From Amphiscolops sp. MND2022 (taxonomy: Eukaryota): a stretch of 64,000 nucleotides of DNA. The stretch is from the NCBI GenBank assembly GCA_964187785.1, contig OZ076409.1:17238001-17302000 (forward strand), read 5' to 3'. Positions 2,739 through 60,120 of this stretch are shown in pieces (position 1 is the first letter of the stretch; every line of letters begins with the position of its first letter). A model generated the notes under the pieces. It searched no databases. It saw only the letters and a program-made list of their open reading frames with translations, and was not told the DNA's origin. A program made the position numbers and the translations under genes.

Positions 2739-4335
2739 GGCCTCACAGCTCTCTTGGGTCGACTATTCTTCCAAGAGCATATAAATTTGCACGAAATGTC
2801 GGAATGGATCATCGGGCATAATTACATCGGAAGTGTGCTGAAAACGAACAATTCAGGACCCGATGGCGATGAAAGCGACTCGGAAGACTTGGAAGCTGAT
2901 CTCGATGACACAGTTTATGGTGTAACCACTGTCATCAGTTTGAAATCTCCGAATGGTATATATTTCATGAATTGGAAGAAACTTATTAAACTATGTAATG
3001 AATAATTTTCGAGTCGCCAGTCTACATTTGAAAAAAAATTCGGTTGAAGAGAGTATAATTTCCGCCTGTGAGATTCTCGAAGCTTTGACCCCTTTTGTTT
3101 GACTCCTTACTGATTTTTAGGAATTAGACTCCTGACCTCTCGGTTCCGACGAATGTGAAATAATTTTGTGCTGGAATCCACTAAAATTGGCCTAGAAAAA
3201 AATCAATTTCTGGTATTTTGCTAATCAATTTAACCATTTGATTTGACTCCAAGCATGAAAAGATACATGCCGCAGATTTTTTCCGGAAAGGAAAATGAGA
3301 GCGCAATGAAAAGCTCATCTTGAATTCCACTTCAGTGCGACTCACATTGCCCTGGAAACTCACATTGCTGGTGTGTAAAGGGGTTATCATGATTCACGAT
3401 TAAGCTGCTTGTGTTATTCAAATACTATATTTAATCATGTGTTAAATGCGGCTTATATCTAATTAGGTTGGTATATGTTGAAATCATTGGTATACTGCTT
3501 TTCACATTGTATGCCTTCAACGCGTGTGTACAATACTGCCGAAGTCGGGAAAAATTTGAGGTGAAGATTAATTACGGACCTATTAGAAAAAGTATTGGCA
3601 TTCATTATCTGTCTCTCCCAGTGTATTATTTCCTAATTTTTGAAAATTATGGTGTAGTTTGAGAAACAAAAAATCGACGGTCATGTTCCATCAAACGTAT
3701 AATTTTTGTATCACCGCCCGAAACTAAACCTAATTGATTTAAAATAGTTTGCTATTGTTGTTTCAGGACCACAGAAAAACTTCAAAAAACAGCTTTTGGA
3801 ATATTTGGAAAAGAACCTCAAAAATGGCCCTGTCATGGATATTTTGAACAACTCCTCAAATTCAGTGGGTCTTATTTTAACGGAACGCTTTGTTAATATC
3901 CCACCGTTGCTAGCTCCCCCAATGCTGAAGTGTCTCAATAAAGAAATCGAGAGTGCAATCAAGAAAAAGATGCCTTACAATTTTACCCACTACATGATCA
4001 TTTCAAAATCGTATGATGTGTCTGCTGCCCAGGATTCCGGTAAGAAGAAGGCTTCCATAAGCACGGACGGCTTGCCACCTTGTTTGGAGTTTATAAACCC
4101 CGAAGATGAAATTTTCCAGCAGTACGCTGATGTAGTTGTTAGTTTCCCCTCTAAAAGCGAGGACCTCGTGACCGGCTCTTGGGGTCCGAAGGACAAGTCC
4201 ATGCCTCAATACAGAACAGTGCTGCTGCTCAGTAAAGCCAAATTCAAATCTGCTGTCGCCAACATCTGTTCTGTCTTTACTGTAGAAAATATGATGTCTT
4301 TAATGGCCGCCAATGGATCAGCTACATCTCAGTGA
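2739..4335 (+). CDS. BCCIP: BCCIP/Bcp1 family protein, last two exons (2739-2955, 3767-4335); 5' exon(s) not found in window
   Basis: Translation GLTALLGRLFFQEHINL...YIGSVLK...VYGVTTVISL and VGLILTERFVNIPPLLAPPM...FTHYMIISK...FINPEDEIF match BCCIP motifs; acceptors ttctag|2739 and tttcag|3767, donor g|gtatat at 2956, phases compatible. Confidence 0.9.
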
Positions 4336-4844
4336 CGTCGTTTTTCCTGAATTTTTGAGAGATGGAGATATTTTCTTGTACAGTTGAATTTTCATAAACT
4401 TGTTTTCTCTGATATTCAACGGATGAAATTGTGAGACCGAAGTTCGCATTTGCTTTCTCAGACCTTGAAAATCATGAAGGTCGCAAGAGCAAAGCGCATT
4501 ATAAATTCGCAAAATGAAAATCAGCCCAGTTTCTTTTTCCACTCGGTTCGGGTTCGAGAATTCATCCATTTGATGTTTTTGTGGACATCCCGATTTGTTC
4601 GTCGAATTACCGCGGTTTTATAAACAACTTTTATCATCGAGTGATGTTTATTGATGTAGTGATGCTTTCATTTTCTATTGATGCTACTTTCATTTAAGTT
4701 CTAGACCGACGTGTTCTTACAATTGTTTTTTGCTCGTAATCAGTTATCATTTAAATACTGTTTTTGCATTGTTTTATGCCCGGCCAGATATCAATTTAGT
4801 TGCTAGAGTTAATTGTTGACTTCAGGGGATGTGATGATGTAGTA

Positions 4845-7800
4845 ATGGAAGAAAGTCCAACATATACAGACCTTGACGCTGAGTCGTCTCGCAAGTATAC
4901 GAACCTGGACTCCTTCGAAACAGCTAGAGCTCCCCACGGTCAACAGTACCCCCAGATGACGGCTCCCACGGGTACTTCTCAGCCTTCTAGTTACCATTAC
5001 GGAACGGGTCCTGGTGCTCCTTACCAACCACCAGGAAATAGTCACTTGGATTCCTCTTCCTATTACAACAATGGCATGATGTCAGTTCCCAGATACCCCA
5101 GTCATGGGGCACCCAGTTCCGCTATTCCATTTCAGCCGCAATCGGGTGCAACAAACCCAAGTTTTGGATACCCCACAGAACACGGACCCACCCCGTTTCA
5201 AAATCCACCTCAAAGTCAATATCCCATGCCTGCTATGGGAATGCCTGGTACCCAGCAGCCGCCTCAGCAGTACCCGCCAAATGTTAATCATCAATATTTA
5301 TCGCAGTTGCATAGTGAAATTGAGTACTATAAAAATGAGATCAATAAAATGTATGTCATGCCCCCTTCTCAAGACCTAGCTGCGAAAATCCGCGACTTCC
5401 AAAACCGCGTGTCATATCTAGAGGATAAAAAACACTATTTATCAATGAATGCGTCTCAAGCTCCTTTGCCGTCTTACAACCATGGAACCCCAACACCTCA
5501 GAATATACCCCCTCATGATCCTAGAATGAGCTATCCTTCACATGATACTCCGAGCTACAATAATGTTCAAGATTACCGAAATCAGTGTGCATATCCTCCT
5601 TCGAACCCCACTTACCCCATGTACGACAAAGCGTCTGGTCAGCCACCCGCTAGCTATCAACAACCCTATGGCAGTTATCCGGGCCATCCGCCAGGACAAC
5701 CTGTTGGTTCTGTTCCGATTCGACCGCAAGTTCCGGTGCAGCCTCCTGGAAGCTACCCAAGTCCTAGGCCTGCCCCTGGTTACCCAAACCCTTACTCAAA
5801 CCACGTCCCATCTAATCAAACTCCTCATTACGGCTCGAATGTAATGCCTGCAGTATCTAACTCGCCCAATGTTATTGGGCATAGCGGCTATTCATACCAA
5901 GATCCTTCCCTTGCGAGTAAGAGTAGCAACCATACTGCTGTTGCTGTTAAGCAAGTACAGCCACCTGGGCAGAAACCGAGTGTAGATGGAAAGAAAACAC
6001 CGAAACCAGAAACCAATCCACCCAAGCAACAGTCACCGGCGCCTGCGGCTAACGATAGACCAAAAGTTGCGTATACTCCTCAAGCAACATCGTTTGTGTC
6101 AAGTTTTGTACAAAATGCTTTTCAGAAAACAAAAGAAAACAGTGTAATGGATCCTTGTGCAATTGTTAGTGAGCCTGTACCTATTGAGAAGGTTGCCTTT
6201 AGATCAACTAAACCAGAAGTAGTTGTTCCCGTAAGTGGATCAACTGATGATTTGACGATGGGAAATGTTTCGAAACCAGAAGATGAAGAATTATCCATTT
6301 CCAGAGCAAAACAGGAAGATTTTGCTAAACAGCTCTCAGCACCACCAGAGGCTCCAGCAGTTATGTCTCTATCTTCTGTTGCGAATGATGCTGAAGAGGA
6401 CTTGCCAAAACCAGTTGACCAGCCAAAACCTAATTTTGAAAAACCCACGGAGCGTCACGAGAGTGTGAATGATTTGGAATCTCCAGCGATAGATCAGAAT
6501 ATTGTATCTACGCAAAACGCTTCAGATCCCAAAGTACCCGATGGTGCATGTAAATCGGATAGGTTTATACAAATTGAAAACTCAGGTAATGAGGAAAAAA
6601 ATCCGCAAATCTCTCAAAACTTCGAAGAGTTCAAAGCATCAGAATCAGCAAGTCCTTCTAGTACATCACCAGCAATACCAACGAAGTGCGTTGAAAACGC
6701 CGCGAGCAATGAAGATGTGCAAGGAAATCAACCAACAGAAAAAACATTCAGTGCAATTTCGTCTTCTTCGGCCAACGAAACTACCGAAAAAACACCACCT
6801 TCTATACCGATTCCGCCATCTTTTGACCCCTTGCCTGTGGTGGTTACTTCCACGTCCAATCAACCAGTGGCCCCAATATACCCTGGAACAACCATGTCTC
6901 AGACTGGCACTCCTTTGGTACCTGTTCATGTAGCTCCTCCCTTGCAATCGAGAGCCCCTGTTCCTACAATGTACCATCAGCCTGGCTTTAACCCTGGTGC
7001 TCAACCTGTCCCACAACCCTATGCTCCCCCTGGGATCCCACCAGGACCTCATATCAGGGGGCCCATGCCTCCTACAGGGCCATATTCAGGTCACTGGGTC
7101 GCCTCTTCGGGTCAAATTCACGGTTCTCCTTGGGTGACAACTACAAGTTACCCTGCGATTGCTCCCGCTGGACCTCTACCTCCTCGTCAACCGACCGGAC
7201 CTGTGGCTATTGCTCCTCGCTGTCATTTGAAAAAATCCTCGATTTCAAACAGAAGTACCCATACGCCCGATGGGAAGAGGATCAGAAAGAAGAAGAAAGA
7301 AACCGAGGAAGCTGTTCCGGATTCAACGACGTCGGAACTTGGCGAACCCATTACAAGCAGCTGTGACTCGTCATCTGTGAACGATTTGAATTTGGCCGAT
7401 CAAGGTAGTCCATACGAAGAGCCTACTAGTTCTCAAACTGACATTGGTTCTGCCTCAACGAAGACAGCCCGTAAGAAGAAAACCGATGGCACGAAAAGGC
7501 CCAAAAAAGGAAAGAAGGTGAAGGATAGCAACGAAGCCGAAGGTATTGATGTCAGCAGTGCAACTCTGAACTCGCTTGAACTGAGCTCCAGTTTTATGGA
7601 CAGCAATATGGATGCAAGTGAGCAAGAATTGCCCAGTCCTTCAAAGACAGAGAACTGTCCTGTGTCGAAAAGCTCAAATAGACGCCCTGTGAAAAAGTTA
7701 GCCACGAAAATAGGCTTGAACAAAAAGAAGCGAAAACGTTTCGACTCCAGTGACGAAGATCTAATGCCTCCTGTAGAAGCAAGTCTGATTCCCGAAGAAT

Positions 7801-10800
7801 TCGTTGAAAAACGTCGGTCAGAAAGAAACACAGGTTAGATTTTTGGTAAATTAAAGTAGGCGCATATTGTAAAGTGTACCAGACTATTACAGTGAGTAGT
7901 TTTTCTCCTTCAGATAACAGAACGTATTTGAATAGTCCACTAAGATGTAAAGTGTATCCATAGAGGCCAAAGGGTCCGCCCTTTGATACTTACATTTTAC
8001 TGGCTATAAACGAGCGAAGGGATTTTCGACACTATGCGACTTTTTCGACTTTTTCTTCATTTTATCGAAGTGTCCCCTTTTTTCGAAGATTTTTTAGTCT
8101 AAAAAGCCTGTTTTGAAGCTTATTGGAAGCAATTATTAAATCAACAAATTTTAAAAGGAAGTTAGTGAAATTGTCCTAGTTCTGGAGTGCTTAGACGTGC
8201 TTTTGATCTTTTTTGAGTTGCCTTCATTTCAGCCAAAACTCGCAGAAGCTATCTCACTGACGATGTAATCGACTACGCCTTGTTGGGCGGAAGCGATGAC
8301 GACGAGTTAAACCCATCTGTTGTGAGATCTTTTGTCGATGAAACCAGCTCTTCAAAAATCGAAGATTCAAATATGGTTGAAGAGAGTGCGAACGACACCT
8401 CAGCTACTTCGAACTCCGCCATTCAAAACCACGACTCGGTTGAAACAAGTAGTTGTTCCACCATTGCGGGCATTGAAGATGGCAACAGCAATTCTACCAC
8501 ACAGCAATCCTTCAACTCCACAAACAATGCCAACACAAACAGTGCAAAAGATGTTACTTCATCTTCGGCCTGCAACAATTCGGCCCCGCAGTTGCTAATT
8601 CCTGCCACGATAGAAAGTGATACATGTGTTGTCGAAAAGATTTTGACATCTAGAACTGTTTCTCCTAATCAGAAATTGAATGAAAAACCGGTCTTGGTGA
8701 GTAGAAATTGTGAAATGTTTGGTCCTGTCAAAGTTGTGGAAATTTCCGACAGAAGTCTGTGCTTAGCATTATTCTGCCAAAAGAGAGATTAAAATTCTGT
8801 TGAAAAGTTGAATTGTCTCATGGAATTTTCTGCAGCTGCTTAAACGTTACTGAACTCCGAAGGACCAATTTTCCAGTCTTTGGTTTTTATTTTTTTTCAA
8901 TCCACACGATTGACCAAAAAATTTTACACAAGTTTTACAAAATTTTATTATCTTGAAATTTTTACGTACATCCGAAGTAAATTGCGTTTTACTAGGAAGG
9001 AGCCGGAGGTTCGAAATTATTGCGCTAAATCCGAAGTTTTGACGTTATATCGTAAGTATATTGCGTTTTACTAGAAAGGAGGCGGAGGTCCGACTCTTAT
9101 CTGTTTCGATTCTTTGTTTCCTTCCAAAGTCGAAAAAAGCACGCTGTTTCCGAATTTTGACGTTATTTTCAAAGTAAATGATATTTTTGGTGAGAGTAAA
9201 AGCTAAAAAAGTCCTTTTAGGCCCAAAAGGGTCTCCCTTTGGGTCTTGTTCGGCGCTCTGAAATTGAAAAAAAAATCTCATTGATGCTTTGAAGTACTTT
9301 TGATCTTTTTGAGCCTTAAGCGGGACGCCGACTTATGCCGTTCCTTGCTTTTTAAATGGTAAAATCAATCGTTTTTTCGCATATGATACCTTTTACAAGC
9401 GTTGCGTATCTCTGTGGTTTATTGACTTACCGTAGAACTCGTTTATAATGAACACCAATATGCCTTCTGAATATGTTCATTATAAAAATTGTTCATTATA
9501 TGAGGATCATTTTAAAAATAGAAAGATATTAGAAAGATATTATCACTTGTTCGCTATAGAAATTATTCATTATAAAGCTGTTCATTATAGACGAGTTCTA
9601 CTGTATATAACGTTCAAAGCAAATAGGGGAGAGACTTTCTTGACTTGAGAAGAGCCAGTGTTTTCGGATTACTCCTTAGATGAGAACTTCGCCTGCATTC
9701 AATTTAGATGCAAAACGTCATCAGCACAAATCGTATAGTGCCAGATTTGAAGACGACGGTGTGTTGATTTCAGTAATTATTGGTTCTTCGAGAATTTTTG
9801 AAGTAAACCTCACTTGTAGCGTAGCATTACCTTATGTTCAATTGGACAGATTTTTTGTCCTTCATTCATGAAACAAAAAATTAAAATAATTAAAAGGTTT
9901 CGTTGGGAGTTTGAAGATTTACCTCCGGATATTTGTGTAGATTAACTGCCGAAATTATTTCTGGAAATGATAAATCAACTTTGTGGAACCTGTTAGGAAA
10001 GTTTTCGCACTTGCTGAATTTCTTCCCGATTTTATTGATATTCGTCTCATTCGAAAGTTAACCGCCTTCTGATTGATCTAATTGGAGCCAATTTTAGTCA
10101 GCTCTTTCGTAGAACGAGACGACTATAGCACTGGCTTTTAAAAAAAATTAAGACCAACGAAATGACAGATTTTATAGGCTTTATAAGCTGTAACGTATAC
10201 CGGATATAACGTTCCTTCGAGAATTTTCAAAGCTGTAAAATGTGGTAAGGAGTCTCCTTCGACAATACCACAACCCATACCGGAATTTACGAAAATAGGA
10301 TATAACGCATTCCGGATATAACGTTTTTTTTGGAGAATTTTGCAATGTTATTTCGGCTTTGAGATTTTTTTAATGTCTGCAAAGGGTCCTCCCTTCAATT
10401 TTTTCAATATTTTGCAACAAATTGGATTTTCAAAAAGCCGGAAGGGTCCCCCTTTTACAATTTTAGGCGTTGTGGGATTTTTCAAAATGATTATTTTTTG
10501 TCGTAAAGTTAGGTTTTCTCATCACGCTATATCCGATTTTTTCAAGACCGGCGTTTTTTCCATGTGACTTTTTTCTAACTTGCTTTTATCATTTTTTACC
10601 AGGAACGAAACGTTTTGCGAGCATACAGGACTCCTTATGGTTTTCGGCACTATGCGACAATTTTTCGTTTTTGAAAGTCTCCAGTTCGGGAAAAAGTTGT
10701 TTTGAGTCTTATGCTTATCCATTTGGGGTATTTTTGGCTCTGTAAAGTCGATGAAATTTTAACAAAAGTGTCCTTTCGCATATTTAAAATACTTTGCTTT

Positions 10801-13800
10801 TTTAACCTTGAGCGGCGCGCCGACATCCCGGTTTGCTAAAGTTCTTTGAGAAACGCTATATTCGAATGCAGAGATAAATGCCGTTTTGGAGTACTTCAAA
10901 CTTTCACCTAATTGACTCCTCAATTTTTTTTACAAATCAATCCGAATCCTGTGATACGGAGATTGAATTAAGTCAACCAGTACTGCTCAATTTTGGTTGG
11001 AATGGATCCGGAAGATTTATCGTTCAAAAATTGTACTTTTGAGAAATGCCTCCATTTGAGAGGAACACCCTTTTGGCTGACATAAGTTTTTTGCAAGCCT
11101 TCAATTGTCAAGAATACGGATCCTTCTGTTGTGCACAAAAGCATTTTGCCTTCAATTTTGGAGAAATTTCATGTAAAGAGAAGTCGTTTGTTGCGAACCC
11201 TGTATCGGAAGATGTCACTGATGACTCAAATACAACTTTTTGAAATTTAAATACCTTTAACGCCATAATGTACTTTCAGGCTCCTTCTGATGAAACCAAA
11301 GATAAAGAAGAAGGAAAAAAGAAAGAAGACAAAGTGGATGAAAAGGTTTCTCCCAAAATATCCAAGGATGCTCCGCCAAATGATCAAGCCCCTATCACTG
11401 AATATTTTGTAAAGTATAAGGGCTTGTCGTATCTCCATTGCGAATGGGCCACCGAAGAAATCCTCGCATCCAAAGACAAACGATTTTCTGCTAAACTCAA
11501 ACGCTTTCTGCAAGTTAGTTTCACAACTTTACGGAAGTTGTTTAATACCATTAACATGGATTCGACGTTTTCAATAGTTTTTCAGTGATCTTTATTAGCG
11601 ATTCATTCAAACTAAGCAGTGAATTCAGTTGAAATTTGAAGATTGACAAAATTTCCAATTCGTTCTCGTTTTTGCTTGTTAAAAGAGTAGAGTGGTTCCA
11701 ATAAAAGATGATCCTAAGTCGGGCTTCGAAGAAGTTTCACTTTTCAAAGTTTGACTTGGTTTTTCTGGCTGGTACGGTGGTTCAGTTATCCATTAAACTT
11801 GAGTTTCCTTTTCAAGAAGAAACTAGATTCAAGCGGGGGTACACGGGTCGAGGACTACAACGAAGAAGAGCCGTTCAACCCAGATTTTGTGGAAGTAGAT
11901 CGAGTGCTGGATTGCATGGACTCAGATGAGATGGACGAAGCCACTGGGCTTCCAAAACGCAATTTTTTGGTCAAATGGTGCTCTTTGCCTTACGAAGAAA
12001 GCACGTGGGAGCTAGAAGAAGATCTCGATGTGCAGAAGATTCAGCAATATTTCAGAGTCAATAATTACAATAAAGTAGGTGTAGTTTTACGGATTTCTTA
12101 TGCAATTAATATTTTATACTCAAGATGACTTCGTTACTCCGAGTTTCAGGAAATTGTGCCATGCTCGTTATTTTTTTTGAACGATGATGTGAAAAAGTTG
12201 CCTATTTATTTGAGCTCAACGTTTTGCTGTAATGTTAGAGTAAACTCTTTGTAATTATTTTTTTGCAAAATTTCAGGACAACACTGAGAAGGGTCTGGTT
12301 CGGCAACATCGTCCTCTTTTCAAGGAGTGGAAGAAGATGGAAGAAACGCCAGTGTTCAAAAATAACAATGAACTACGTGATTATCAACTAGAGGGTATTA
12401 ACTGGCTTCTCTACTGCTATTACAAACAAACGAACTGCATCCTAGCGGACGAAATGGGTCTGGGCAAAACTGTGCAATCAATCACCTTCCTGGAGTCTGT
12501 ATACAGACTGGGAATTAAAGGCCCCTTCCTCATAATAGCTCCCTTGTCTACTATTTTGAACTGGCAACGGGAGTTTGAAGGCTGGACCGACCAAAACTGT
12601 ATAGTCTACCACGGCTCGCAAACCAGTCGCAATATGATTCAGCAGTATGAAATGTTTCACAAGGACCCGAAAACTAAACACCCCAATAGAAAGAAGTTCA
12701 AATTCACAGCTTTAGTCACGACTTACGAAGTCCTTCTTGCCGATTGCTTGGACTTATTCCGAGAAATTGATTGGAGGGTCTGTATCATTGACGAGGCGCA
12801 TCGCCTGAAAAACAAAAAATGCAAACTCATGGATGGTCTCAATATGCTTTCTCTCGAACATGTGGTCTTGTTAACTGGAACTCCATTGCAAAATAACGTG
12901 GATGAGTTGTTTTCGCTGCTCAACTTCTTAGATCCGTTGAAGTTCAGCAACAATCACGACTTCTTGCAAGAGTTTGGAAGTTTACAAACAGAAGAACAGG
13001 TCAGTCCAAAGTACTTTTGTTGCTTCACTTGAATCGATCGAAGCTGCTGATGTAAGCGGCCATACCAATTGTATCAACGCCACCTTTCGTTCGGTGAGAA
13101 ACTCCAGGAACCATTTCAAGCGGCAACCCCAAAAACATGCAAATCACTGGAAGAAGTTTTATGTAAAGACACTTCGTTTTTGTTTGATTATGATTTTATC
13201 CGGATATGAAAGTAACGCGTCTAAACTTTTTATAATGTTGAAACGGCTCATCGGTATGACTAATGAAACTGGCTGGTCGGCATGACTAAATTAGACAATT
13301 AAGTCCAGTAAACAATGAAGCATTTAATTCAATGTTGAGTGATGTATATTGGTTGTACGACCCAAGTCTTCTTCCTCCGGGGGCGCTTCGCACCCCTTCA
13401 AGTCGGCCTTCGTCAGAATCAGCCGCGGGTCAGGAATGGTACGTCGTTCCGCTTCTCTCAGCTCTTTAAATTTAGGACACTTTAGGAAATCGCCATGTTG
13501 GTATTTTGTCCCCGTGGTATTCCATCCGCTAGTATGTTTTTTTTGGTATTTTGACCATATTGAATGATGATTAGTGTGTTTTTAGGTGAACAAAATAGCC
13601 TTATAGGAGGACAGGTTGAAGTCCTCGTATCACTTTTGTTTTCGGTTTGTAAAAATCTTTTCTAATCACGAAAGTTTCTTTTATTCTTTTCCACGCTGCC
13701 CTCGTTTATGTAAGTCAGTGTTTTTAATTATGTATTAAGAATGATATGTATGTACTTTGGTTCTGTAAAATTGATGATGGTGCGTGTTAATTTAATCATT

Positions 13801-22774: not shown

Positions 22775-22977
22775 CAGGGTTTTGACTTCGCTATTTTTTC
22801 CGCTTATCGGTGGGTTTTGGAAAGGTTATGGAATTTTTCAAATATTACTTCGAAATCTTGATTCGAAATATTACTTGATTTTGAATTTGTACATTCTATT
22901 AGTTGCCGCTAATTTGAATCGCTTATGAAATCGCTGGAAAATTGCTGCGCGACTGCTTATTAGCGATGTCAAAACTG
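22775..22977. mobile_element. hAT-type MITE
   Basis: TIR cagggttttgacttcgcta / tagcgatgtcaaaactg; 8-bp TSD atacctat / atacctac. Confidence 0.8.
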
Positions 22978-23327
22978 ATACCTACTAAACTCAATCTTGC
23001 ATAGGATTAACGTGGCCTTGATTTTTAAATATGATTATTTGAAACAAATAAAGAGGCAAATTTAACTTAAATTTAACAATAATCGTCTAATAACTTTTTT
23101 ATTGTATTTCGAAAGTGTCAGACATCAGTTGAGAGAAACCAAAATAGTTTTTGACAATTGCGTCAATAAAGTTCGATGTTTTGCTGAGACTTGTTCTCAT
23201 ATAACTTACAGTTTTCAAGGTCTAAATCATGTTGTCCCTGTAACTCAAAGTTTGCAATGATTTCCCAGCCAATCAGTATTGGAGTGGGTATCCACCAGGT
23301 CCACGTCGTATATACAACCCGCTGTGA

Positions 23328-25045: not shown

Positions 25046-25189
25046 CTTATTTATCGACACTATGCCACTGTTTCGAACCTTCACAAAAAGTTTTTTGGAT
25101 GACTTTGTTTTTCGAATATTAAGCGAATGGTGTTTTTAAGGATGACATGTCCTGTCACGGAAACTGAAAGTGAAGAATGATCGGATCTA

Positions 25190-49500: not shown

Positions 49501-49652
49501 AGGCTGCTGATTTGTGGTTCCGACTGAACAGTCCCTTGGCAAAGGTTAGCTTGTCACCTATTTTATTAATCGTGACTGTTTTTCAATGTCCAGTAGTTTT
49601 TTCAGTTTGTTTTTTGTCTAGGGTTGTCTGATCTTTTGCGTTATCATCACGG

Positions 49653-49687
<35 letters not shown>

Positions 49688-50696
49688 AACTGCTGTTGTG
49701 GCAAGTTCAAACCCAAAGTGGACGAGGAGGTCGACGAAGATTTCCTGGCCCAGTTCGAGAAAGACTTCATGAAGGACAACGAGGAAGGTAACGACCGCAA
49801 TGGCACCGGAGGCGATGGACCCATCACTGCACAACCGCGTAAGTTGCTATTCCCTTCTTCTTAACAATCGCCCATAATGTCAATACCGCCTAATTTGCGT
49901 AGAGCCAGGTACTGGACAAGCATACATTCTCCAAGACATGCGACAAAATAAATAAGTACGCTTTTTTAAATTGAGAAACCTGAAGTTTTTTGAAGTGCCT
50001 AAAATGAATAAGAAAAGCAAAAATGTCAATTTTACTAATATTCCGAATTTTTCACGCAAGTTTCGTTCGTAGTTTGATGGCCACTCTCGAGCACTACAGC
50101 ATGTTGCTAAAATAATTAATGGTGGAAAATATCCTGGTGTTCAGCAAGCTTCTTGTTAATCAATCCAAAGTTGAATGTCAGGTCATCAGTAATTAATCTG
50201 ACGAGACGAGTTCCGAAGTACTCAGAAAACTCAGCTGCAAACAGTGGTTGACATCGCTAGTCTCCGAATCGCCAACTTCAGAATCGCTAAGTCGATGATT
50301 TCCTTTCAATTTATAAAATCGAGTGTTTTTTTTTAGAAAAATTATTGGAAAAGTCATGTGTGTAAACGAAAAGAAAAGATTTCCGCATTCCATGGCGAAA
50401 AAAATATGGGAACTGGGAACATTCCATCTTTTTGCAGTTTTACGATTTTAATGACTAGTTCTTTTTAAATCGGTAGTGAAATTGCTGATTGTTTCGCTTG
50501 TGCCCGCTGAGTTGCTGATTAGCATGTCGCCAACCTTGATACCAGATTATTCATAAATAACGAATGATTTCTGGACTGGTGTGGTACCGTCTTCGCTACT
50601 TGCATTTTTCCACACATTTCTGTGTCATCCTGTCTGAAATTTGTTCAACTTGCTGTCGTTTCAGAGAATCTAGGGTCACAAGATCCTGTGTGCTAA
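43531..50696 (+). CDS. DNAJC5: Cysteine string protein (DnaJ C5), ~196 aa; exons 43531-43586, 47763-47838, 48168-48224, 48293-48403, 49503-49544, 49622-49838, 50665-50696 (alternative stop exon 49903-49955)
   Basis: Not in the ORF track, read manually: MRSD...[19 protein letters not shown]...[20 protein letters not shown]...|[13 protein letters not shown]...YDKYGSRGL; cysteine string ITG-C11-N-C3-GKFKPK; the terminal exon is less certain. Confidence 0.9.
43942..44483 (+). mobile_element. Family B copy
   Basis: Same termini and core as the other copies. Confidence 0.78.
44737..45265 (+). mobile_element. Family A HINE-like copy
   Basis: tagtcggcgcattttagtagaaaatgtgcccgacta 5' hairpin; gcgccgactttggccgttctcggcttgtt end. 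Confidence 0.78.
46149..46902 (+). mobile_element. Family B copy with internal ~123-bp tandem duplication
   Basis: aattatgcattcgta units at 46458 and 46581; GCCCC-gga-GGGGC 46883-46895. Confidence 0.78.
48624..49424. mobile_element. pogo/Tigger-type MITE interrupted by a family A copy
   Basis: TIR caatcaactccgtttataacgatt / aatcgttgtaagcggagttgagtg; TA flanks. Confidence 0.8.
48750..49386 (-). mobile_element. Family A HINE-like copy nested in a pogo/Tigger-type MITE
   Basis: Reverse-complement termini aacaagccgggaacggc and gcgccgactaaaaa; 5' terminus tandemly duplicated. Confidence 0.75.
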
Positions 50697-51562
50697 ATAT
50701 GCGAGCACTCGTGAACAAGTAATGATCATTTCTTCATCGCTTTCTCAACTGCTCTGTTCACGTTCACTTAGTGCCGCCAGTACAGTCGTGTGATATTGTG
50801 TCGAAATTGTGTGCATGATCAGGCTTGTAAAAATAAATATATTCACTTGTTGGTTTCTGGCCAGCAGTAAATATATTAAATATATTGAGGGAAAAATATA
50901 CTGTTCGAACAAAAACCTCATTTGTATACTTCTTGGACTGTATCCACCAATAATAATAATACCAAACTTTGAAGTGGATGAACGAATTTTTCTAAATGTC
51001 TAGTAACCAAATCCAAATACTTCATAATAGTTGGTCAAGAAATATAATTGAGTTGAATTTCGTGTATTTCGAGTATACGACTATTACACCGTTTCCACGT
51101 TAAATGAAGCACATCAGATGTTAAATGAACAACCAATAGAAATTGATTAGCTTGCTACAGCAAATCTCAAATAATGTGAACGAAATCGCAGCTTGAATGA
51201 AAGTGTAAGCGAATGCCGCATACGATTTTGTGTACATGTACAGCACTCTTTGGTCAGCGTTTGTTAAATTTGAAAGCGTCGTTGGTGATTCTTATTCGCT
51301 AACTCACTTGGAAGCTGATATAGTTCACTTGAATTCTGATTGTAAAGCACTTTTAGTTTGGTGGCCGGTGATTGGCTGAAAATTTGGAACGAAAGCCGAG
51401 ACGATTCACTTAAAATCTGATATGCTTCACTCAACGCGGAAACGGTGTATCATACATTTGTTGCACATGACGAAGTCAATGTGCATTGCAGTCCAGCTAA
51501 GAAAGTTTTTTTTTCCACAATAGCCAACTTCATAATAAGCGCCTTTTAGAGAAAAGCCAAAA

Positions 51563-51632
51563 CCCCAGAGAGATTCGAACCTGAAGCCTTCCGATTGCGC
51601 GGCATAAGTGTTAACCACTGTGCCATAAGGAC
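51563..51632 (-). pseudogene. tRNA-derived sequence (pseudo-tRNA or SINE head)
   Basis: Minus strand GTCCTTA-TGGCACAGTGG (A box)...GGTTCGAATC (B box); T and anticodon stems pair poorly. Confidence 0.6.
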
Positions 51633-51678
51633 GTTATTGAATAAAGTTGAACTGTTGAATATATACGCATGCGATTAA

Positions 51679-51682
<4 letters not shown>

Positions 51683-51727
<45 letters not shown>
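51683..51727. repeat. (TA)n microsatellite
   Basis: About 22 AT units. Confidence 0.95.
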
Positions 51728-51728
<1 letters not shown>

Positions 51729-53371
51729 GCATATTAAAATAATCGTTGTCTTCATGTGTTGCGAAGCACCGCTTCGCCTCTGTGTGTAAATACTTGCCAA
51801 CCTTGAAATAATATCAAAATCCCTAGGGTATATAGGCCTAATACTAATACATCGGATTGAAAAATAAGTATATTGTATTCTATGAAACCAAAAATGTTTT
51901 TTGTCAATATATTTAATACAATAATTTTTTTGCATCCCTTTGCATGATTATTACCTGGCCAGCACGTTTAATACGAAGCAGCTAGTTTTTGCTTGGCCTC
52001 TAGATGAATGCACGCGATTTTTGAACCACGATCATGAAATGTGGCGATGTCTGACGGAGTAGTATCATAACCCAATTGAGTTTTGTGTTGGATCGACTGC
52101 GTTCACTGCAAGCTTGGATTGTTCTTCCAAGTTGTTGATGATTTTTGCATGTTTCAGGATGATGAGTGGTCGTTGCCTTGATGGTAGCTGTGGTTGGACT
52201 GTTCGGTTCCAGTTGCAGGTCAGGGAGCAGTCGATCATCTGCTTTGTTGCCTTTACTATTCGTTTCTCCATAAATTCATGAATCGATGTTTCAATTCCGA
52301 CTACTTTTAATTCATAAATGTTATTTTTCTATTGTAAACTAAATTAGTCCAAAATCTATTGCTTATTGTAGCGATATTACCGCTTCCCCATCTAGCCTGT
52401 CGTTGCATCAGTAGTTTTTGGGTAAATGCGATTTTTGTTTTGCAGCATTTTCAAAATTAACAAATGTTTCTGTAGAAGTTCTGCACTTTGAACCGCGTTT
52501 TTATCAGTTTTGTGTTGAATTGAAAGATGTGTGTCAGTTGTGTGACCGCTAAGCGTAATTCAGCTATTGCTACCGCTAGCTATCGAAAGATGTAGATTGC
52601 TGTAGCTGAAAAACAAGTGGAAGAGCTCAATTTGCTTATCAATTTTCTCGCCTTGAAATTTTTCTGATAGGCGCAAGAGAAAGAAATAACCATAGATTTT
52701 TTTTAGAAATGAGAACCCCTCTTCGAATTCTTGAAAAAGTTAGTGCCGGAACGCTCGGTTCAGCTACCGAATTCATGTTTTGGGAACAAAAAGAGAACAA
52801 ATTTGCGGGAAAAGTATTTGAGAACATCGGTAGCTAGCGGTAGCGATGATTTCAAAGAGCGATAGTAGTGTTCAATCCACTGATAAGTATCGTACTGATG
52901 CAACAAATATATTTGTATTGCTGAAGACATGATGCGCTGCTGTTTATGTTGATAAAAGTTTGATATTATTGTAAATACAATTGCACATCGCCGGTATTTT
53001 GTCTCGAGAAATGCTGAGTTGGTGCTTAGAAGCTGTCTGTGCGCCTAGTTTAACCTCTTGTCTCAATTTTTTTACTCAGCTCGATGTCAAATTAGTCCAC
53101 CCAAAGGTGCCAATTTTCCTCACTTTCCGAGGTATTCCATTTCTGAGAATAAATTTCGAGGTAGTATTTCAGTTTTTTAAGAAGACACTAGCTGAGAATT
53201 CTAATGGCTGAGAAGTTACGTCATTCTGATAATCAGGTGATTTTTGTAGTATATTTTTCAGAAAGATATAGAAACATTCAAGAACGTTTCGACTCGCTTG
53301 AAAGAATCCAGTTTCGTTTGGGCTGAAGTAAGGCACTGTGGTCATAATGTGAATATATCTCGTCGATTATT

Positions 53372-54799
53372 ATGAGCAAGTGGCTTAATCAGCAAAACTC
53401 GTGGGGCAAGCACGGGAGGGTGCCTGGAAACGTACAGCCCGTAGTATATGGTGCTCAGCACCCACCTTTGGGTGCGCAGAGCAGCAGTAGCAATTCTCCT
53501 GGAAAAACCCAGAAGGCTAAAAATTTTGACGAGTTTGAACAGAAAACCCACGATGCATGGGAATTCTCCAATGATGATCTCTTGGCCCTGGGGTTGGGCA
53601 AAGTTTTGCAAGATGTAGCGGAGTCTACGGCCAATACAGTGATAGAAAACCACCGAAAGAAGTCAGAAATATCAGAAAATGCACAAAATTCAAACAGATC
53701 GACGAGTCACGGTGATAATTATGTCGCATCGTCTGGAGCCCCTCTCGAGTTTGACCCCGATGACCCAAAATCTTATCCCAGGCCAAATTCCAGGGAACGC
53801 GACAAAACGGAACGAGAAGCAACCAAATTGAAGAGGTTTGAAGAAGTGTTGGAGGAAGATCCCATCAGCTTAGAACGATTGAGGGGTCTGTGTTGGAATG
53901 GAATTCCGGTCAAACTTCGACCGATTGCTTGGCGACTGCTGACGGGGTACTTACCAGCTAGTAAAATAAGACAAACAGAAACTCTAGAGAGGAAGCGGAA
54001 AGAGTATTTTCTGTTTGTTGATCGGCTTTTTGATACTGCCTCTGATTTCAACCAGGAGACCTATCGTCAGATAAAAATTGATATCCCTCGAACCAAACCA
54101 CTCATTCCCTTATTCCAAAAACCTGAAGTTCAAGGAATGTTTGAACGGATTCTGTACATATGGGCTATTCGTCATCCTGCAAGCGGCTATGTGCAAGGAA
54201 TCAATGACCTCGTTGTGCCATTTTTCACGGTTTTTCTATCAGAAGTGAATGGATTCAAATACGTCGAAGACTTAGAGGTTTCCAATTTCTCCCTATCTCA
54301 TTTACAAAATATCGAAGCTGACTCGTTCTGGTGTCTAACCAAACTGCTTGATGGCATCCAAGACAACTACACGTTCGCTCAACCAGGTATTCAGCACAAA
54401 GTCTCCTTGCTCAAAGACCTCATGAAGAGAATCGATGTGGAGTTGCATCATCATCTAGAAACGCATCAAGTAGAATATCTACAGTTCGCATTCAGGTGGA
54501 TGAACAACCTCCTCATGCGTGAAATTCCTTTGCAATGTTCTATCAGGTTATGGGATACGTATCAGGCCGAGCCCGATGGTTTTTCCAATTTTCATCTCTA
54601 TGTATGTGCTGCTTTTCTCAAGTACTGGTCAAGACAGTTGAAAGAGGAGAAGGATTTCCAAGGGCTGCTTTTGAAGTTGCAGAATCTGCCCACGTACCAC
54701 TGGCGGGACAACGAAATCAACCAGATTCTTGCCCAGGCGTATGAACTGAAGTGCATGTTTGCCAATGCCCCTAGCCATTTGAACTCTCACACAAGTTGA
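53372..54799 (+). CDS. TBC1D22: TBC1D22/Gyp1-type Rab-GAP, single coding exon, 475 aa
   Basis: WNGIP...RPIAWRLLTGYLP, QIKIDIPRT, WAIRHPASGYVQGINDL, EADSFWCLTKLLDGIQDNYTFAQPGIQ, QFAFRWMNNLLMRE. Confidence 0.95.
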   Translation: MSKWLNQQNSWGKHGRVPGNVQPVVYGAQHPPLGAQSSSSNSPGKTQKAKNFDEFEQKTHDAWEFSNDDLLALGLGKVLQDVAESTANTVIENHRKKSEISENAQNSNRSTSHGDNYVASSGAPLEFDPDDPKSYPRPNSRERDKTEREATKLKRFEEVLEEDPISLERLRGLCWNGIPVKLRPIAWRLLTGYLPASKIRQTETLERKRKEYFLFVDRLFDTASDFNQETYRQIKIDIPRTKPLIPLFQKPEVQGMFERILYIWAIRHPASGYVQGINDLVVPFFTVFLSEVNGFKYVEDLEVSNFSLSHLQNIEADSFWCLTKLLDGIQDNYTFAQPGIQHKVSLLKDLMKRIDVELHHHLETHQVEYLQFAFRWMNNLLMREIPLQCSIRLWDTYQAEPDGFSNFHLYVCAAFLKYWSRQLKEEKDFQGLLLKLQNLPTYHWRDNEINQILAQAYELKCMFANAPSHLNSHTS

Positions 54800-55713
54800 C
54801 CTTTGATTGTTGAACTCCGACCCCCCAATGATGTCTGTATGAATTTCAGTGACCTGTGACCTGACTTCTCTTGACCGAGCTTGGCCCCGTGGATGCGGTC
54901 AAATGGCAATTCCTCTGTTTTATCTTTCAAACCGAACCTTTATCACGAATAGTCAACAATTTCAAATTAATCACTTACTGCGTATTTTTATGCGTTCCGT
55001 CTCAATATTTGAGGTACCTATTGGTTTGTGAAATATCTATATTTAATTACAGCCAAACTAGATCATGAAAATTCAAAGTGAATTTTTCAAATAACTATTA
55101 CTTAGTTTGTCCATTCCTGTTTGAGAATCTATGATCTTTAGGATACAATTGTATAGAAAAGAATGTGCTTTAAATTATAAATATCTTTGTTTGAAACTCA
55201 GTTGATATTTTTCCTCCAAAATTCACCCTAGCATTTCTACACTAAGCGCCGCCTCAATATTTTTTGTTGGTTTTAAACAAAAGGATTGCTGTATGATTGT
55301 ATCGAATAATTTAGGACTCGATTTAATCGACATCGGTAACCTTTCAGCAGCTGAATCGATACAAACTTAGTTATAGAAAGTAATCGGATATTTTCTCTGC
55401 ATTCATCTCGGCAGCATGCCATTTTGGACATTTATCTTCGTATTAAGAGAGACTCTTGCAAGATATTGATGTGAATTTTGGGTCAGATTTTGGGAGTGTA
55501 ATGTAAAAAGGAATAGTTGCAAAATATATTTCGATTTTTCTGTTCAGTTTATTATATAAATACTGTTGATAAATTGCAATACATATATCTCAAGTTCTCG
55601 TTCTCAAATTTACTCCAAACTGTCTGGAACCGAAGATTCAGCAACCATTTCATGTGAGTATCAGTATTTCGAAAATATTCTTTTTCAGATTCACTGCTCA
55701 ATCTGTTTCAAGC

Positions 55714-58700
55714 ATGTCTCTTTATCCAACATTGGAAGATATGAAGGTGTCGCAAATGCAGCAGGTTAATACTTTAACCAACAACTTTTAATAATTTGAT
55801 GGCATTAAATTGTATCATTTGATTTCTACGGAAGGTTTTCACGGCAATACAATCTGTCGTAGCATGCTTTTTTTCATTTGCTATTAAATCGACAGTTTTC
55901 ATTGAAAGTGAATTTTTACTTCAAAAAAGTTCTCACTATAGCCCTAGTTTCTGTTTGCCGGCGGTACTAATTGCTTGCAATTCACTGGAGGATTTGAGAC
56001 ATCAATTTGGGGCTCCCAAAAAAGAGTGAACTGCTATTGCACTATGGGTATAAGTTTTCATTTTCCGTCCATTTGGGAAAGGAAAATTACTGAGCCGCGT
56101 GTTTGTTACAAAATTTGTCATTTTCCAAGTTTATACCCAAGTACTTCCTCAAAATTCAGCTTCCATAAAGTTTCGTTTTGTGGGATTTGTATTTCTAGAG
56201 ATATTTGAACTTTTTGGAAGTGCTTAGAGAGAAAAGTGCCCAAAATAGCTAAAACTTTCCAGTTGCACAAATATTAGTGAGCCTCAATTGGTACAATTTT
56301 TGAAGTTTGACGCGAGATTGGCTCGTAGCTATTTCTTGAGGTTTCTGGCAAAAAGTTCGCGGATTGGACACATACCAACCTTTTTGCCTTTTCAGTTGAA
56401 TTTTTGAAAATTCCCTGGTTGTTTCTCTAATTTTCGAGTTGCATGGAAGAATCTGACCCAAAAACATTCGAGCAAGTCACCAAATCTTCATTAATTTGAA
56501 GAGATGCTGTAATATTACAAACGAGTCTAATCATTTTATCACTTTGGCAGTTTCTGGCCTGATTTTCATCGAGAGTATTAATTGATTGTTTTCACCCCTA
56601 TTTCACATTTTTCAACATTGTGGAAATTTTAGTTTTTGGCGTGCACAAAAATTCTCATGGCTTTTGTACGAAGTACATACGATAGGCAGAACTATGTTAA
56701 TCACGTTTTTGGACCGCCGGAATAGTGAAAACAGCTGAAAAGGCTGACAATAGCGTGTTTTATTACAACTCATTTGGCAAACCTGATGTTTACTTAGTAA
56801 ACGAATGTTCTTAGGTAGAATTTATAAGTTAGCGAGTGACGTCAGCGATGAAATGAGTCGAATCGGCTAAGTCAGAGTTGATCTCTGAGAGCGAATTTTA
56901 CTAAGTCCCACTTAAGAGCGAAAATATTCTAAGATACCACCCAGAAAATTCAAGCGTGACAAATCTTTAAACCCCCCCCCCAAACGCTTTTTCTCAGAGA
57001 CTATCAATCGTAGAGACTTGAAATTTGGCACACGTATACCTAAGCTGTTATGCTACTGATCCATAAAAACGGAACCGAGCCGAGACCCCCCAGTCCCGGG
57101 CTATTAGCACCGGAAGTGACCTAGGTCGACCCCCCTACGAACTCGTCGGCCAAGCTAGGAATAAGCCCGATTATATATGGAATGGATAGCCCATGGGAGA
57201 GTAAGCCGTTTGCGCATGTTTTCGGAACCCTACGATGCGTGTAGGAGGAGCACGGACCCTAAGTAAATAAACACCTAACGGTATGTAAATCGCCACCGGA
57301 TGACCCAAAGATCATGAAACTTACCCAAGATGTTCAGCTAGTAACCCTAAGTAGTATACATGAAAGATACATTAATCGGTCCACCACGCGCGGAGTAATG
57401 TTTGTTTAAGGCACGCGGGACCGGACGCGCGGGCCCGACCGATAAAAGACATTTGACCTTGGCTTGTAATACCTCAAACGAACCGGAATGATGAATGTTG
57501 TCGATTAATACTGTGAATGAGACCGTATTTGTAACCCATGCGGGGGTAGCCGCCTTAAGTAAACAGATCATACGCATATCATGTAACTCGAAGACCATTG
57601 ACCCTAGGACGATATAACTTGGCATGCAGCAACTCTGGACGAGGACGAATAACTTCAAGGTCACTGATGGATCTCAAGGTCATTTTAGATGCAACCCATG
57701 AACATATGGAGAGACTTATGATAAAACATGTAAATCAGCGCCGTTAAGTGATAATTTATGCATTTCAGTCAGGCGAGAGAATTCGCGATGCATTGCGTCC
57801 AAAAGGACGGAAAAGTAACCCTCATACGTAGAGAGCATGTAAACCATGTAACTGAAGGTCATTAAACTATTTTCTCGATATTAGAAATATCTCGGGTGAC
57901 ATGAATTAATATTGAAATGTGAACTTTGTACAACCTTTGTTGAAGTATTTGTCGTTGGCGGCGAAGAATGTCTGGCCGAAACATGACTAGGGCGCTACCA
58001 TGCCATAAAAGGAATGAAACTACATGAAGTCAAAAGCATGCAAAATAAAAGAGCGACATCGGTACAACAAAAATGCGGGCGATGAACAAATATGATTGAG
58101 GCGGGATTGGAATATACTTGAATAGACAGAACCGAGTTAGAAAGCTGGAATTAAGTTGAGTCTCGCGGAGGCAAGATACTTGTTCGAATTAACACTCGCG
58201 TTTCTCGACAAGCGAGTAAGAGAACTAGAAGAAAGTTGAGTCTCGCGGAGACAAGAGACACTTCTAGATTACATTGTCGCCAGCAGAAGAGATTAACCGA
58301 CAAGTCAGGGACTTGTAATTTTGGTTGAAGTTTGAGCTTCAACAAGATTGAATTGCGCCTAACGCACCTGGCTGAATCGTGGATTCGATTGTTGTTGTAC
58401 CCTTTCACTGAGAATTGTAGATAGTACTTGATGAATATTAGTTAGTTTGACTGATTGGAATTACTTAGTGTTATTGTTTTCGTTAGAGAAGTAATTTTAT
58501 TATTCCATTATTCAAAGCTTTTGGAAACCGTGAGCCGAAAGAGCACTATTTGGAGAGAGAAATTGACAGTAACTTCAAGAGAATCGGCTAACTCACTAAA
58601 ACAACCTTTTTGTCTGTTAAGCTTCTAATCCGAGGTAAAACTCTCTCCGACCCCCGAATTGGATTTTCTTACAAACATTATCATTTTGCAGGAACAATAT

Positions 58701-60120
58701 ATTTCATTGGAATCGCCAAGTTCTCTTTCAATTTCAATACACTTGTACGTATTCATTGGTAAATTTTGCACACTATTTTCTCGAATTGGATCCAAACCTA
58801 TCGCAATTTCAGAGTCGAAAGCGTGTAACGAAACCGGTACTTGACCACGGAGCTAAGGATCAATCTTTTTTATTAGCGCGACAGAAGTGACAGCACCATA
58901 ATATGAAGTCCAAATTCAACTACTCGAGTGTTATCATTTTTGGTTTCATCAAATTGAGTTTCGTGAACATTTTCTACTGTTCACTGCTGTATTGGTAACT
59001 TCATTTTTGATCGCAGTTTGTTAAAACTCATTTTTAAATTACCGAGTTCAAAAGTTATTTGATGTGCGCATTCATTTTTCTCTTTTGCCACTTTTGTGAC
59101 AATTCATCGGGATGACTTTTCCAGGTGCTGTTAACTTTTCTCACATCCTAAATGGAGTCCTTTTGTTCTTGCCTGCTTCATGACACGTGGAGTGACATGG
59201 ATGTTTTAGGCTCAATACGTACCCCCGCCTTCATATTCACACTATCCCGCGCCACCCGCCTACCCTGCGCAGCAGACGAGCAGTAGCGGGGGATACCCCT
59301 GTGTGGACAACCAAGCCGCATCGGTGGGGGTGTCAACTGGTAATGCTGTCATCGCCTACCCCAGTCTCAGTGACTACATGGGTCTCAGCTTGCAAACTTT
59401 CGCCGCCCCGCAGGTTAGTGCATAACAAGTTCCTTCATGTTCTATTTGCGACCTTGGAAACCCTATGCGGGATAATTTGGTATCTTGAATGAAGCTTTCT
59501 AGTCAAAGTTTTCAGTTTTGGGTCATAGTATGTTATCTCAATTTGTTTTTTTTTTCAAAGATTTTTTTCGAGCTATCGCCAGGATTTGTACGGGGGTTTT
59601 CTTTTAGTTAGGGAGATTTATATGATAATTACAACAAAACATATTTAGGGAACTTGGCGTCAAAATGAGACCGAGTATAACTCTTCAGCAACGTTGTAGC
59701 TCAATATTTGGAAATGAACTTCTAAATCGAATATTTCAAGACCCAAAAATTCTACGTCACAATGCAATCTCTTATTTGATAGATTACAGCGATGTTTCAA
59801 CAGGGAAAGATGTTCTTTCCAAAGCCACGGGAAGCACATTGACTATTGCGTATTGTCAAAATGATGCTAATGTTCGAAATATTTTATGTTGTTAGCGCTT
59901 CGGAGTACTACCAAATAGTCCAAATTTAATTCTGTGTTGAATTCAGGCTGGCGCAGTTGTTCATGTGTCTCCCAATCAGCGACAGGTGGTGAAGGCTCCC
60001 GTGACATCAGCGAGTTTGAACAGCATCAAACGAGCTGCCATCAAACCGGGAGTCACCGAAGTGATTCTCTGCAAGGACGAGGACGGCTTGGTTGGGCTGA
60101 AAGTGAGAGACATCAGCAAG
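55714..60120 (+). CDS. SDCBP: Syntenin, first three coding exons (55714-55764, 59210-59413, 59947-60120); continues beyond window
   Basis: MSLYPTLEDMKV start; YPSLSDYMGLSL; IKRAAIKPGVTEVILCKDEDGLVGLKVRDISK (start of PDZ1); phase-0 GT-AG junctions. Confidence 0.9.
56985..57700. repeat. Probable interspersed repeat remnant in syntenin intron 1
   Basis: Recurrent aaa(t/c)ttggca, tgaccttg and caaggtca motifs, higher GC than flanks; single copy in window, so unconfirmed. Confidence 0.35.

What the first reader, a model, noticed from the sequence alone, without database searches (positions are those of the whole stretch)
2739..60120. Nine unrelated housekeeping genes co-oriented, with splice acceptors just before start codons: operon-like cluster
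Seen: all 9 genes are on +. Acceptor-like sites precede each visible ATG: ttcag|4826 (ATG 4845), ttttaag|25141 (25190), tttcag|27412 (27422), tttcag|34195 (34198), tttcag|37769 (37774), tttcag|43386 (43531), tttcag|53262 (53372), tttcag|55689 (55714). Stop-to-acceptor distances are 399, 490, 632, 889 and 1209 nt where TEs are absent; the longer gaps contain repeats. Established: this layout is typical of spliced-leader trans-splicing operons in nematodes, tunicates and flatworms. Inference: a polycistronic unit of 57 kb or more. Alternative: each gene has a small non-coding first exon.
Basis: partly seen in the sequence, partly recalled or inferred. Interest (0 to 1): 0.8.

Follow-up and report, generated by a model that had tools for sequence, protein, structure and literature searches.

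The report
Giant operon-like gene run in acoel
In an acoel worm, nine housekeeping genes are the middle of a run of at least 21 same-strand genes, each preceded by the kind of splice site at which this genome is shown to attach its spliced leader, so the run is likely read as one or a few shared transcripts (operons), an arrangement our searches did not find described for acoels, though RNA proof is missing.

Summary
Observation confirmed and extended. The host is an acoel (best named hit Symsagittifera roscoffensis, 78%). The leader published for that species has 2,601 matches in this genome and 0 for the control. They include SL RNA genes in tandem with 5S rRNA and leader-headed retrocopies. 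For 5 of 5 host-mRNA copies traced to their parent gene, the leader is joined exactly after TTTCAG, so such acceptors are real trans-splice sites here. The window's 8 acceptors lie a median 22 nt before the ATG, against 286 for the null (P about 2e-5). The + run continues outside the window: 21 genes over about 145 kb, 25 over about 258 kb, beginning head-to-head with an ASXL gene. Chk1, TBC1D22 and TKT stay linked in two related acoels. Not shown: trans-splicing of these nine genes, or co-transcription. Spacers (399-3,599 nt, UTR included) are long for operons, so promoter-plus-outron per gene remains possible. No acoel operon was found in six literature searches. The scan noted operon candidates before, in other, non-acoel genomes.

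The parts
2741..4335 (+). BCCIP/BCP1, exons 2-3 (2741-2956, 3767-4335); first exon lies about 400 nt upstream of the window, after a cttcag acceptor 26 nt before its ATG
   Evidence: Pfam BCCIP; flank sequence
4336..4825 (+). Spacer BCCIP to CHD7, 490 nt, repeat-free, no strong donor motif; ends in predicted trans-splice acceptor cttcag
4826..21541 (+). CHD6-9/kismet-type chromatin remodeller (ATG 4845)
   Evidence: Pfam SNF2, Helicase_C, HTH_CHD6-9, BRK
21542..25140 (+). Spacer 3,599 nt, 1,550 nt repeat; a repeat ends 113 nt before the acceptor tttaag
25141..26779 (+). Chk1 kinase, one coding exon (ATG 25190)
26780..27411 (+). Spacer 632 nt ending in tttcag, no strong donor motif
27412..33795 (+). 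RGP1 (ATG 27422)
   Evidence: Pfam Rgp1
33796..34194 (+). Spacer 399 nt; AATAAA cluster 295-308 nt before the acceptor tttcag
34195..35095 (+). PNO1/DIM2 (ATG 34198)
   Evidence: Pfam KH_PNO1_2nd
35096..37768 (+). Spacer 2,673 nt, 1,854 nt repeat, ending in tttcag
37769..42176 (+). PAP2-family gene, DOLPP1-like (name recalled; ATG 37774)
   Evidence: Pfam PAP2; last exon read from sequence
42177..43385 (+). Spacer 1,209 nt, repeat-free; holds one strong donor-like GGTAAGT 788 nt before the acceptor
43386..49864 (+). DnaJ protein with cysteine string, DNAJC5/CSP-like (name recalled; ATG 43531); true last exon uncertain; nearer AGs exist just before the ATG
   Evidence: Pfam DnaJ; sequence
49865..53261 (+). 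Spacer about 3.4 kb with a 0.7-kb repeat (51082-51797), ending in tttcag
53262..54799 (+). TBC1D22, one coding exon (ATG 53372); single copy in the genome
54800..55688 (+). Spacer 889 nt, repeat-free; donor-like GTGAGT 35 nt before the acceptor tttcag
55689..60120 (+). Syntenin-like gene (name recalled; ATG 55714), continues beyond the window to two PDZ exons
   Evidence: Pfam PDZ

Best explanation
These nine genes are the middle of a long same-strand run of housekeeping genes in an acoel whose genome trans-splices a 31-nt leader onto TTTCAG-type acceptors, and the run is likely transcribed as one or a few polycistronic RNAs that would be cut into single mRNAs by 3' end formation plus leader addition at the acceptor before each start codon. 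Shown: SL RNA genes; leader joined after TTTCAG at five other genes; the same acceptors before 21 of 21 examined start codons in the run; co-orientation; linkage in relatives. Inferred: that these particular acceptors receive the leader (about 0.9); that polymerase reads through at least the short spacers (about 0.75); promoter in the gap between the divergent ASXL and UBE2J2-like genes. Least certain: that all nine (about 0.4) or all 21-23 genes (about 0.25) form a single unit rather than several operons in tandem. Repeats accumulate in spacers as they do in introns because only the branch point and acceptor would need keeping.
For: (1) Acoel host; trans-splicing published for S. roscoffensis, 30.2% of genes (PMC9911081, passages). 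(2) 2,601 leader matches, control 0; copies followed by GTAAGT, two stem-loops and an AATTTTTGA Sm-like site (z -3.1), next to 5S rRNA in a 904-bp repeat about 0.8 Mb from the window. (3) 5 of 5 traced leader-headed copies start at the first base after TTTCAG in a single parent gene: WDR36, eIF2A, SLC28, CSE1L, ACSL-like; two lack the parent's introns. (4) Acceptor median 26 nt before ATG in 21 of 21 genes examined in the run (0 of 200,000 null draws); branch-point-like CTAAT upstream in 11 of 26 sites vs 3.4 expected (top of all 5-mers tested, not corrected for that). (5) Run of 21 genes UBE2J2-like to TKT, 25 to GALE, no minus-strand host gene recognised inside. (6) T-over-A skew in unique mid-spacer DNA +0.112+-0.011, introns +0.066+-0.012, divergent gap +0.027+-0.014, SLC37-COX10 gap -0.011+-0.011. 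(7) Repeats reach to 63, 113 and 120 nt before three acceptors. (8) Chk1, TBC1D22 and TKT homologues share contig lengths in two other acoels: 361,390 bp (84-93% identity) and 762,986 / 84,699,996 bp (59-78%). (9) Elsewhere a 155-nt stop-to-acceptor spacer (NDUFAF3-like to CHCHD).
Against: No leader-headed copy of any gene of the run among the 38 and 44 copies listed (patterns covered only first exons starting AT or G). Spacers are long: 399-1,209 nt without repeats, up to 3.6 kb in the window and 7 kb in the flank, against about 100 bp in C. elegans and Macrostomum operons and 517 bp in Trichuris; trans-spliced monocistronic tunicate genes have medians near 2.2 kb. The values here include unknown 3' UTRs. 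The skew also fits long UTRs or outrons. Two of five short window spacers hold a strong donor-like motif and a third a weaker AGGTA. Gaps of about 20 kb follow TKT and SLC37, and the skew vanishes after SLC37, so the outer genes may be separate units. Three zinc-finger genes are tandem paralogues. Two other clusters followed downstream were short (about 6-7 and 3-4 genes, then repeats). Microsynteny among related acoels is expected without operons; same contig is inferred from equal lengths, and order was not seen. Small or divergent minus-strand genes could be missed.
Confidence: 0.7

Rival explanations
1. Each gene is trans-spliced but has its own promoter: transcription starts in the spacer and a short outron is replaced by the leader. 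Co-orientation would be a relic of old operons or of chromatin domains.
For: Spacers of 400-3,600 nt leave room for a 3' end, promoter and outron; in tunicates and flatworms many trans-spliced genes are monocistronic; fossils prove trans-splicing, not co-transcription; for 2 of 5 traced parents (eIF2A, CSE1L) no upstream host gene was identified.
Against: Does not by itself explain 21-25 genes on one strand starting at a divergent pair; skew continuous through spacers but not the divergent gap; spacers of 295-490 nt in the run and 155 nt elsewhere.
Confidence: 0.23
2. Ordinary genes with a small non-coding first exon spliced in cis to the acceptor before the ATG.
For: Donor-like motifs occur in 7 of 11 short spacers of the run; donors here are degenerate, so one cannot be excluded; shared cis/trans use of acceptors is common in parasitic flatworms (PMC12582326, passages).
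Against: Needs a 5' UTR intron in 21 of 21 genes; 4 of 11 short spacers, including two in the window, have no such motif; identical acceptors take the leader at 5 of 5 tested genes.
Confidence: 0.05
3. Chance: a gene-dense patch with accidental AGs and accidental co-orientation.
For: Nine co-oriented genes are expected about 49 times per 25,000 genes; TTTCAG is common.
Against: Acceptor proximity P about 2e-5; extended run expected 0.006-0.024 times.
Confidence: 0.02

Closest known systems
SL trans-splicing in the acoel Symsagittifera roscoffensis (PMC9911081; passages and supplement search seen) and Convoluta pulchra (PMC2481426 Table 4; passages seen)
   Same: Same leader sequence, found exactly in this genome; SL RNA genes in many copies.
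   Different: Neither text of the S. roscoffensis paper has 'operon' or 'polycistron'; the 2008 table lists acoel operons as '?'. 5S linkage and leader-headed retrocopies were not in the passages seen.
SL-resolved operons of Macrostomum lignano (PMC8629364; passages seen)
   Same: Conserved housekeeping genes, repeat-invaded spacers, single leader type seen.
   Different: Mostly 2-3 genes, maximum nine, repeat-adjusted spacing peak about 100 bp; here 21-25 co-oriented genes with longer spacers.
Chaetognath (PMC12460157), C. elegans, Trichuris, Ciona and Oikopleura operons (PMC7986045, PMC8629364; passages seen)
   Same: Unrelated housekeeping genes in one direction, acceptor shortly before each ATG; SL/5S repeat as in C. 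elegans (recalled).
   Different: Largest reported 7-9 genes, spacers about 1-500 bp; no SL2-like second leader was looked for or found here.
Trypanosomatid directional gene clusters (recalled; named passage)
   Same: Long same-strand run beginning at a divergent strand switch.
   Different: Here genes have introns, clusters are separated by repeat deserts, and other clusters sampled were short.
Dinoflagellate retrogenes with leader relics (PMC5585692, PMC12014239; search listing and abstract start only)
   Same: Genomic copies of mRNAs headed by the leader record trans-splicing.
   Different: Here most leader-headed copies are LINE-type retrotransposons, and host mRNAs are captured by an LTR element.

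Membership tests
SL trans-splicing system | SL RNA gene: leader, 5' splice donor, stem-loops, Sm site | tested here: met
   (Sm consensus recalled); Rfam SL1 model gave nothing over cut-off
SL trans-splicing system | Leader joined to unrelated mRNAs at a 3' splice site | tested here: met
   5 of 5 traced retrocopies; 5 of 8 host-like copies were traced
SL trans-splicing system | Leader on the mRNAs of these nine genes | tested here: inconclusive
   no copy among 38 + 44 listed; acceptors match the proven ones
Eukaryotic SL-resolved operon | Adjacent genes on one strand with none opposite between | tested here: met
Eukaryotic SL-resolved operon | Acceptor just before each downstream start codon | tested here: met
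Eukaryotic SL-resolved operon | No upstream cis donor paired with that acceptor | tested here: inconclusive
   motifs in 7 of 11 short spacers; donors degenerate
Eukaryotic SL-resolved operon | Short intercistronic distance (poly(A) site to acceptor) | tested here: inconclusive
   stop-to-AG 399-3,599 nt including unknown UTRs; 5 of 7 measured window spacers under 1,000 nt after repeat removal, the Macrostomum threshold; one AATAAA cluster about 300 nt before an acceptor
Eukaryotic SL-resolved operon | One promoter and a polycistronic pre-mRNA | not testable with these tools
   no RNA or chromatin data in hand; skew is indirect
Eukaryotic SL-resolved operon | Gene linkage kept in relatives | tested here: met
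   three genes, equal contig lengths in two other acoels; order not seen
Nematode SL2-type operon | Second, operon-specific leader | not tested
   searches used the one published leader only

The most novel reading that the evidence does not exclude
The whole run from the UBE2J2-like gene to the SLC37-like gene (23 genes, about 175 kb) is one transcription unit: a trypanosome-like directional gene cluster in an animal, more than twice the largest operon (nine genes) in the papers read, and the first operon in Xenacoelomorpha. The same read-through and leader system has been taken over by many LINE families that begin with the leader, lack an obvious promoter of their own and are re-capped by trans-splicing, and by an LTR element that captures leader-bearing host mRNAs.
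Probability: 0.25. Interest if true: 0.88.

Novelty: new member of a known kind. Interest (0 to 1): 0.68.

Why it matters
Acoels sit at a key place in the animal tree and are models for regeneration and photosymbiosis; whether they have operons was left as '?' in 2008 and not addressed in the 2022 genome paper. This locus makes the question directly testable with named AG positions and short RT-PCR spans. Operons here would add a lineage to the debate on independent origins of trans-splicing, change where promoters are sought for transgenesis, and warn of fused gene models. If the run is one unit it would stretch the known size of animal operons. The leader-headed retrocopies give a way to map trans-splice sites from DNA alone.

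Tried and rejected
RNA runs: no RNA holder listed, so no reads were laid. Rfam SL1 model: nothing over cut-off in the genome; no Rfam match in the window. Retrocopy of a cluster gene: none among 38 and 44 listed; TBC1D22 single copy. Leader-like sequence in the 464-kb region: none at 3 mismatches or fewer. Donor scan: inconclusive. Spacer motif search: only CTAAT and GGTTAT stood out, uncorrected. Upstream ATGs in the predicted 5' UTRs are at chance level (26 vs 21 expected); not counted against trans-splicing because two proven leader-bearing mRNAs (eIF2A, ACSL-like) also have early ATGs and main starts 200-300 nt downstream. Nematode origin, suggested by TTTCAG, rejected. A RAD50 search to extend synteny upstream gave no result in time (ticket); the atlas look-up for the TRUB2-like gene gave no result, so that name is recalled only. 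Extending two other clusters found only short runs. Literature searches for acoel operons: none found; for leader-headed retrotransposons: none on acoels in the listings. Subscription papers and bioRxiv supplements were not visible and could hold an operon analysis.

Full report
Observation. The nine genes are confirmed on +, and 0 of 105 leftover ORFs reached a Pfam cut-off. The five short stop-to-acceptor distances reproduce. Acceptor proximity is beyond chance: median 22 nt against 286 nt for 1,611 non-coding ATGs, P about 2e-5. Nine co-oriented genes alone are not: about 49 such runs are expected among an assumed 25,000 genes.

Organism. The window is G000:C1:17238001-17302000 of a 1,067-Mb assembly. 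The best named relative of TBC1D22 is from the acoel Symsagittifera roscoffensis at 78%; Chk1 relatives cluster with S. roscoffensis and Convolutriloba macropyga proteins at 58-59%. The host is therefore an acoel, neither of those two species. S. roscoffensis is reported to trans-splice 30.2% of its genes, and the paper prints the leader (PMC9911081 and its preprint; passages); 'operon' and 'polycistron' occur 0 times in both texts and 'operon' 0 times in the journal supplement. A 2008 table lists acoel operons as '?' (PMC2481426, passages).

The leader in this genome. The leader has 2,601 matches at up to 3 mismatches, the reversed control 0. Of 15 loci read, 4 are SL RNA genes: leader, GT donor, stem-loops, an Sm-like AATTTTTGA, beside 5S rRNA, in a tandem array of mostly 904-bp units about 0.8 Mb upstream. 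The other 11 are complete leaders fused to non-donor sequence at dispersed sites. Of about 50 such copies examined most head LINE-type elements (reverse transcriptase in 4 and endonuclease in 2 of 8 ORFs scanned); 8 look like host mRNAs. I traced 5 of the 8. Each has one parent, the match starts at base 1, and the parent has TTTCAG immediately before it: WDR36, eIF2A, SLC28, CSE1L (Pfam) and an ACSL-like gene (name recalled). The eIF2A and ACSL-like copies lack the parent's introns. This is DNA evidence that this species trans-splices at exactly the type of site seen in the window. Nested LINE copies show the same: leader plus TTTCAG plus X in one copy, leader plus X in another. No copy of a gene of this run was among 38 and 44 listed.

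Extent. In 200 kb on each side, the + run reads: UBE2J2-like, LRR, three zinc-finger paralogues, TRUB2-like, ATRX-like, a small ORF, RAD50, the nine window genes, BLM-like, zinc finger, transketolase (21 genes, about 145 kb); then after about 20 kb a zinc finger and an SLC37-like gene (23, about 175 kb); then after about 23 kb COX10-like and GALE (25, about 258 kb). Several names are recalled from domain content; the TRUB2-like gene, the small ORF and two zinc-finger genes have no Pfam hit. Upstream lies an ASXL gene on the minus strand, head-to-head across 14 kb; downstream come minus-strand ORFs and a TRPM-like gene. All 21 genes whose starts I fixed (8 in the window, 13 in flanks; BLM-like, ZnF5, COX10-like and GALE left out) have an acceptor within 249 nt of the ATG, median 26. 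Runs of 20 or 22 genes are expected 0.024 or 0.006 times; collapsing the paralogues leaves 19 to transketolase and 23 to GALE.

Read-through. T-over-A skew in unique mid-spacer DNA is +0.112+-0.011, in introns +0.066+-0.012, in the divergent gap +0.027+-0.014, between transketolase and ZnF5 +0.089+-0.014, between SLC37 and COX10 -0.011+-0.011. This fits transcription through the spacers with a break after SLC37, but long UTRs or outrons would give the same. Repeats come within 63-120 nt of three acceptors. Donor-like motifs occur in 7 of 11 short spacers, which is inconclusive.

Conservation. Chk1, TBC1D22 and transketolase homologues share contig lengths in a closer acoel (361,390 bp for all three; 396,170 for two) and in S. 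roscoffensis-cluster records (762,986 bp; 84,699,996 bp). Same contig is inferred from equal length; order was not seen.

Other clusters. Parents of the traced copies sit among co-oriented genes: USP39-WDR36-aminotransferase; eIF2A-ERGIC-NDUFAF3-like-CHCHD-NIPSNAP with one 155-nt spacer; CSE1L and GET4 with an opposite-strand sulfotransferase between; a SNARE gene upstream of the ACSL-like gene. These runs are short and end in repeats, so the window's run is unusually long among those seen.

Mechanism and verdict. Most likely (0.7) the run is one or several SL-resolved operons; the main rival (0.23) is one promoter and outron per trans-spliced gene; cis first exons (0.05) and chance (0.02) are unlikely. 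Against the operon reading, spacers are longer than in C. elegans, Macrostomum, tunicates or Trichuris, though they include 3' UTRs. The largest operons in the papers read have 7-9 genes. Six searches found no paper on acoel operons; subscription journals and preprint supplements were not visible. It works like a known kind of system in a lineage where it was left open; its length could make it a new variant. Interest 0.68.

Noticed in passing
L003-L013, L058-L077, L106-L125 (dispersed in G000): Many unrelated LINE-type retrotransposon families begin with the complete spliced leader at their 5' end; nested copies show re-trans-splicing at an internal TTTCAG. Suggests elements without their own promoter that rely on host read-through and trans-splicing. 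Not found for acoels.
   Followed up: partly
L003:leader+1-27, L009:leader+1-34: Several of these elements carry the reverse complement of the leader directly after it, folding into a long hairpin just before a second acceptor, like stem-loop 1 of the SL RNA; function or origin unexplained.
   Followed up: partly
L123:1-7917; also L058, L064/L122, L075, L108, L118, L127: A gag-only LTR element with 1,014-bp LTRs holds, at one fixed site, the leader plus the 5' part of different host mRNAs (eIF2A, WDR36, SLC28, CSE1L, ACSL-like, one unnamed), 98-100% identical to their parents; likely template switching at the shared leader.
   Followed up: partly
G000:C1:16.23-16.42 Mb (L014-L017): Tandem SL RNA + 5S rRNA repeat, mostly 904 bp, about 0.8 Mb from the window.
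   Followed up: yes
L040:8366-8720: Small intronless ankyrin-repeat ORF on the same strand inside an 18-kb GALE intron, with acceptors upstream; could be released by trans-splicing.
   Followed up: no
L044:3859-5766: COQ6-like gene (name recalled) on +, apparently inside an intron of a minus-strand TRPM-like gene, with an acceptor about 170 nt from the flanking exon and little room for a promoter.
   Followed up: no
L066 (G000:C2:2346450-2349100), L059: Leader-headed copies of a Chk2-like kinase (tandem array of at least five) and of an RPL41-like ORF; names recalled, parents not traced.
   Followed up: no
L138:4935-5090: A leader-headed LINE sits co-oriented a few kb upstream of the proven CSE1L trans-splice site.
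   Followed up: no
window 25190-26779, 53372-54799; L030:6178-8064: Chk1, TBC1D22 and transketolase have intronless coding regions, whereas their vertebrate orthologues have many introns (recalled); would fit old retroposition of leader-bearing mRNAs into the run.
   Followed up: no
window 28970-32650: 3.7 kb of RGP1 intron with broken reading frames on both strands, not masked as repeat and without Pfam hits; probably a decayed element.
   Followed up: partly
window 62861-63298: GDSL-lipase-like ORF (weak Pfam hit) in a syntenin intron, resembling the extra ORF seen at the head of some leader-bearing LINEs.
   Followed up: no
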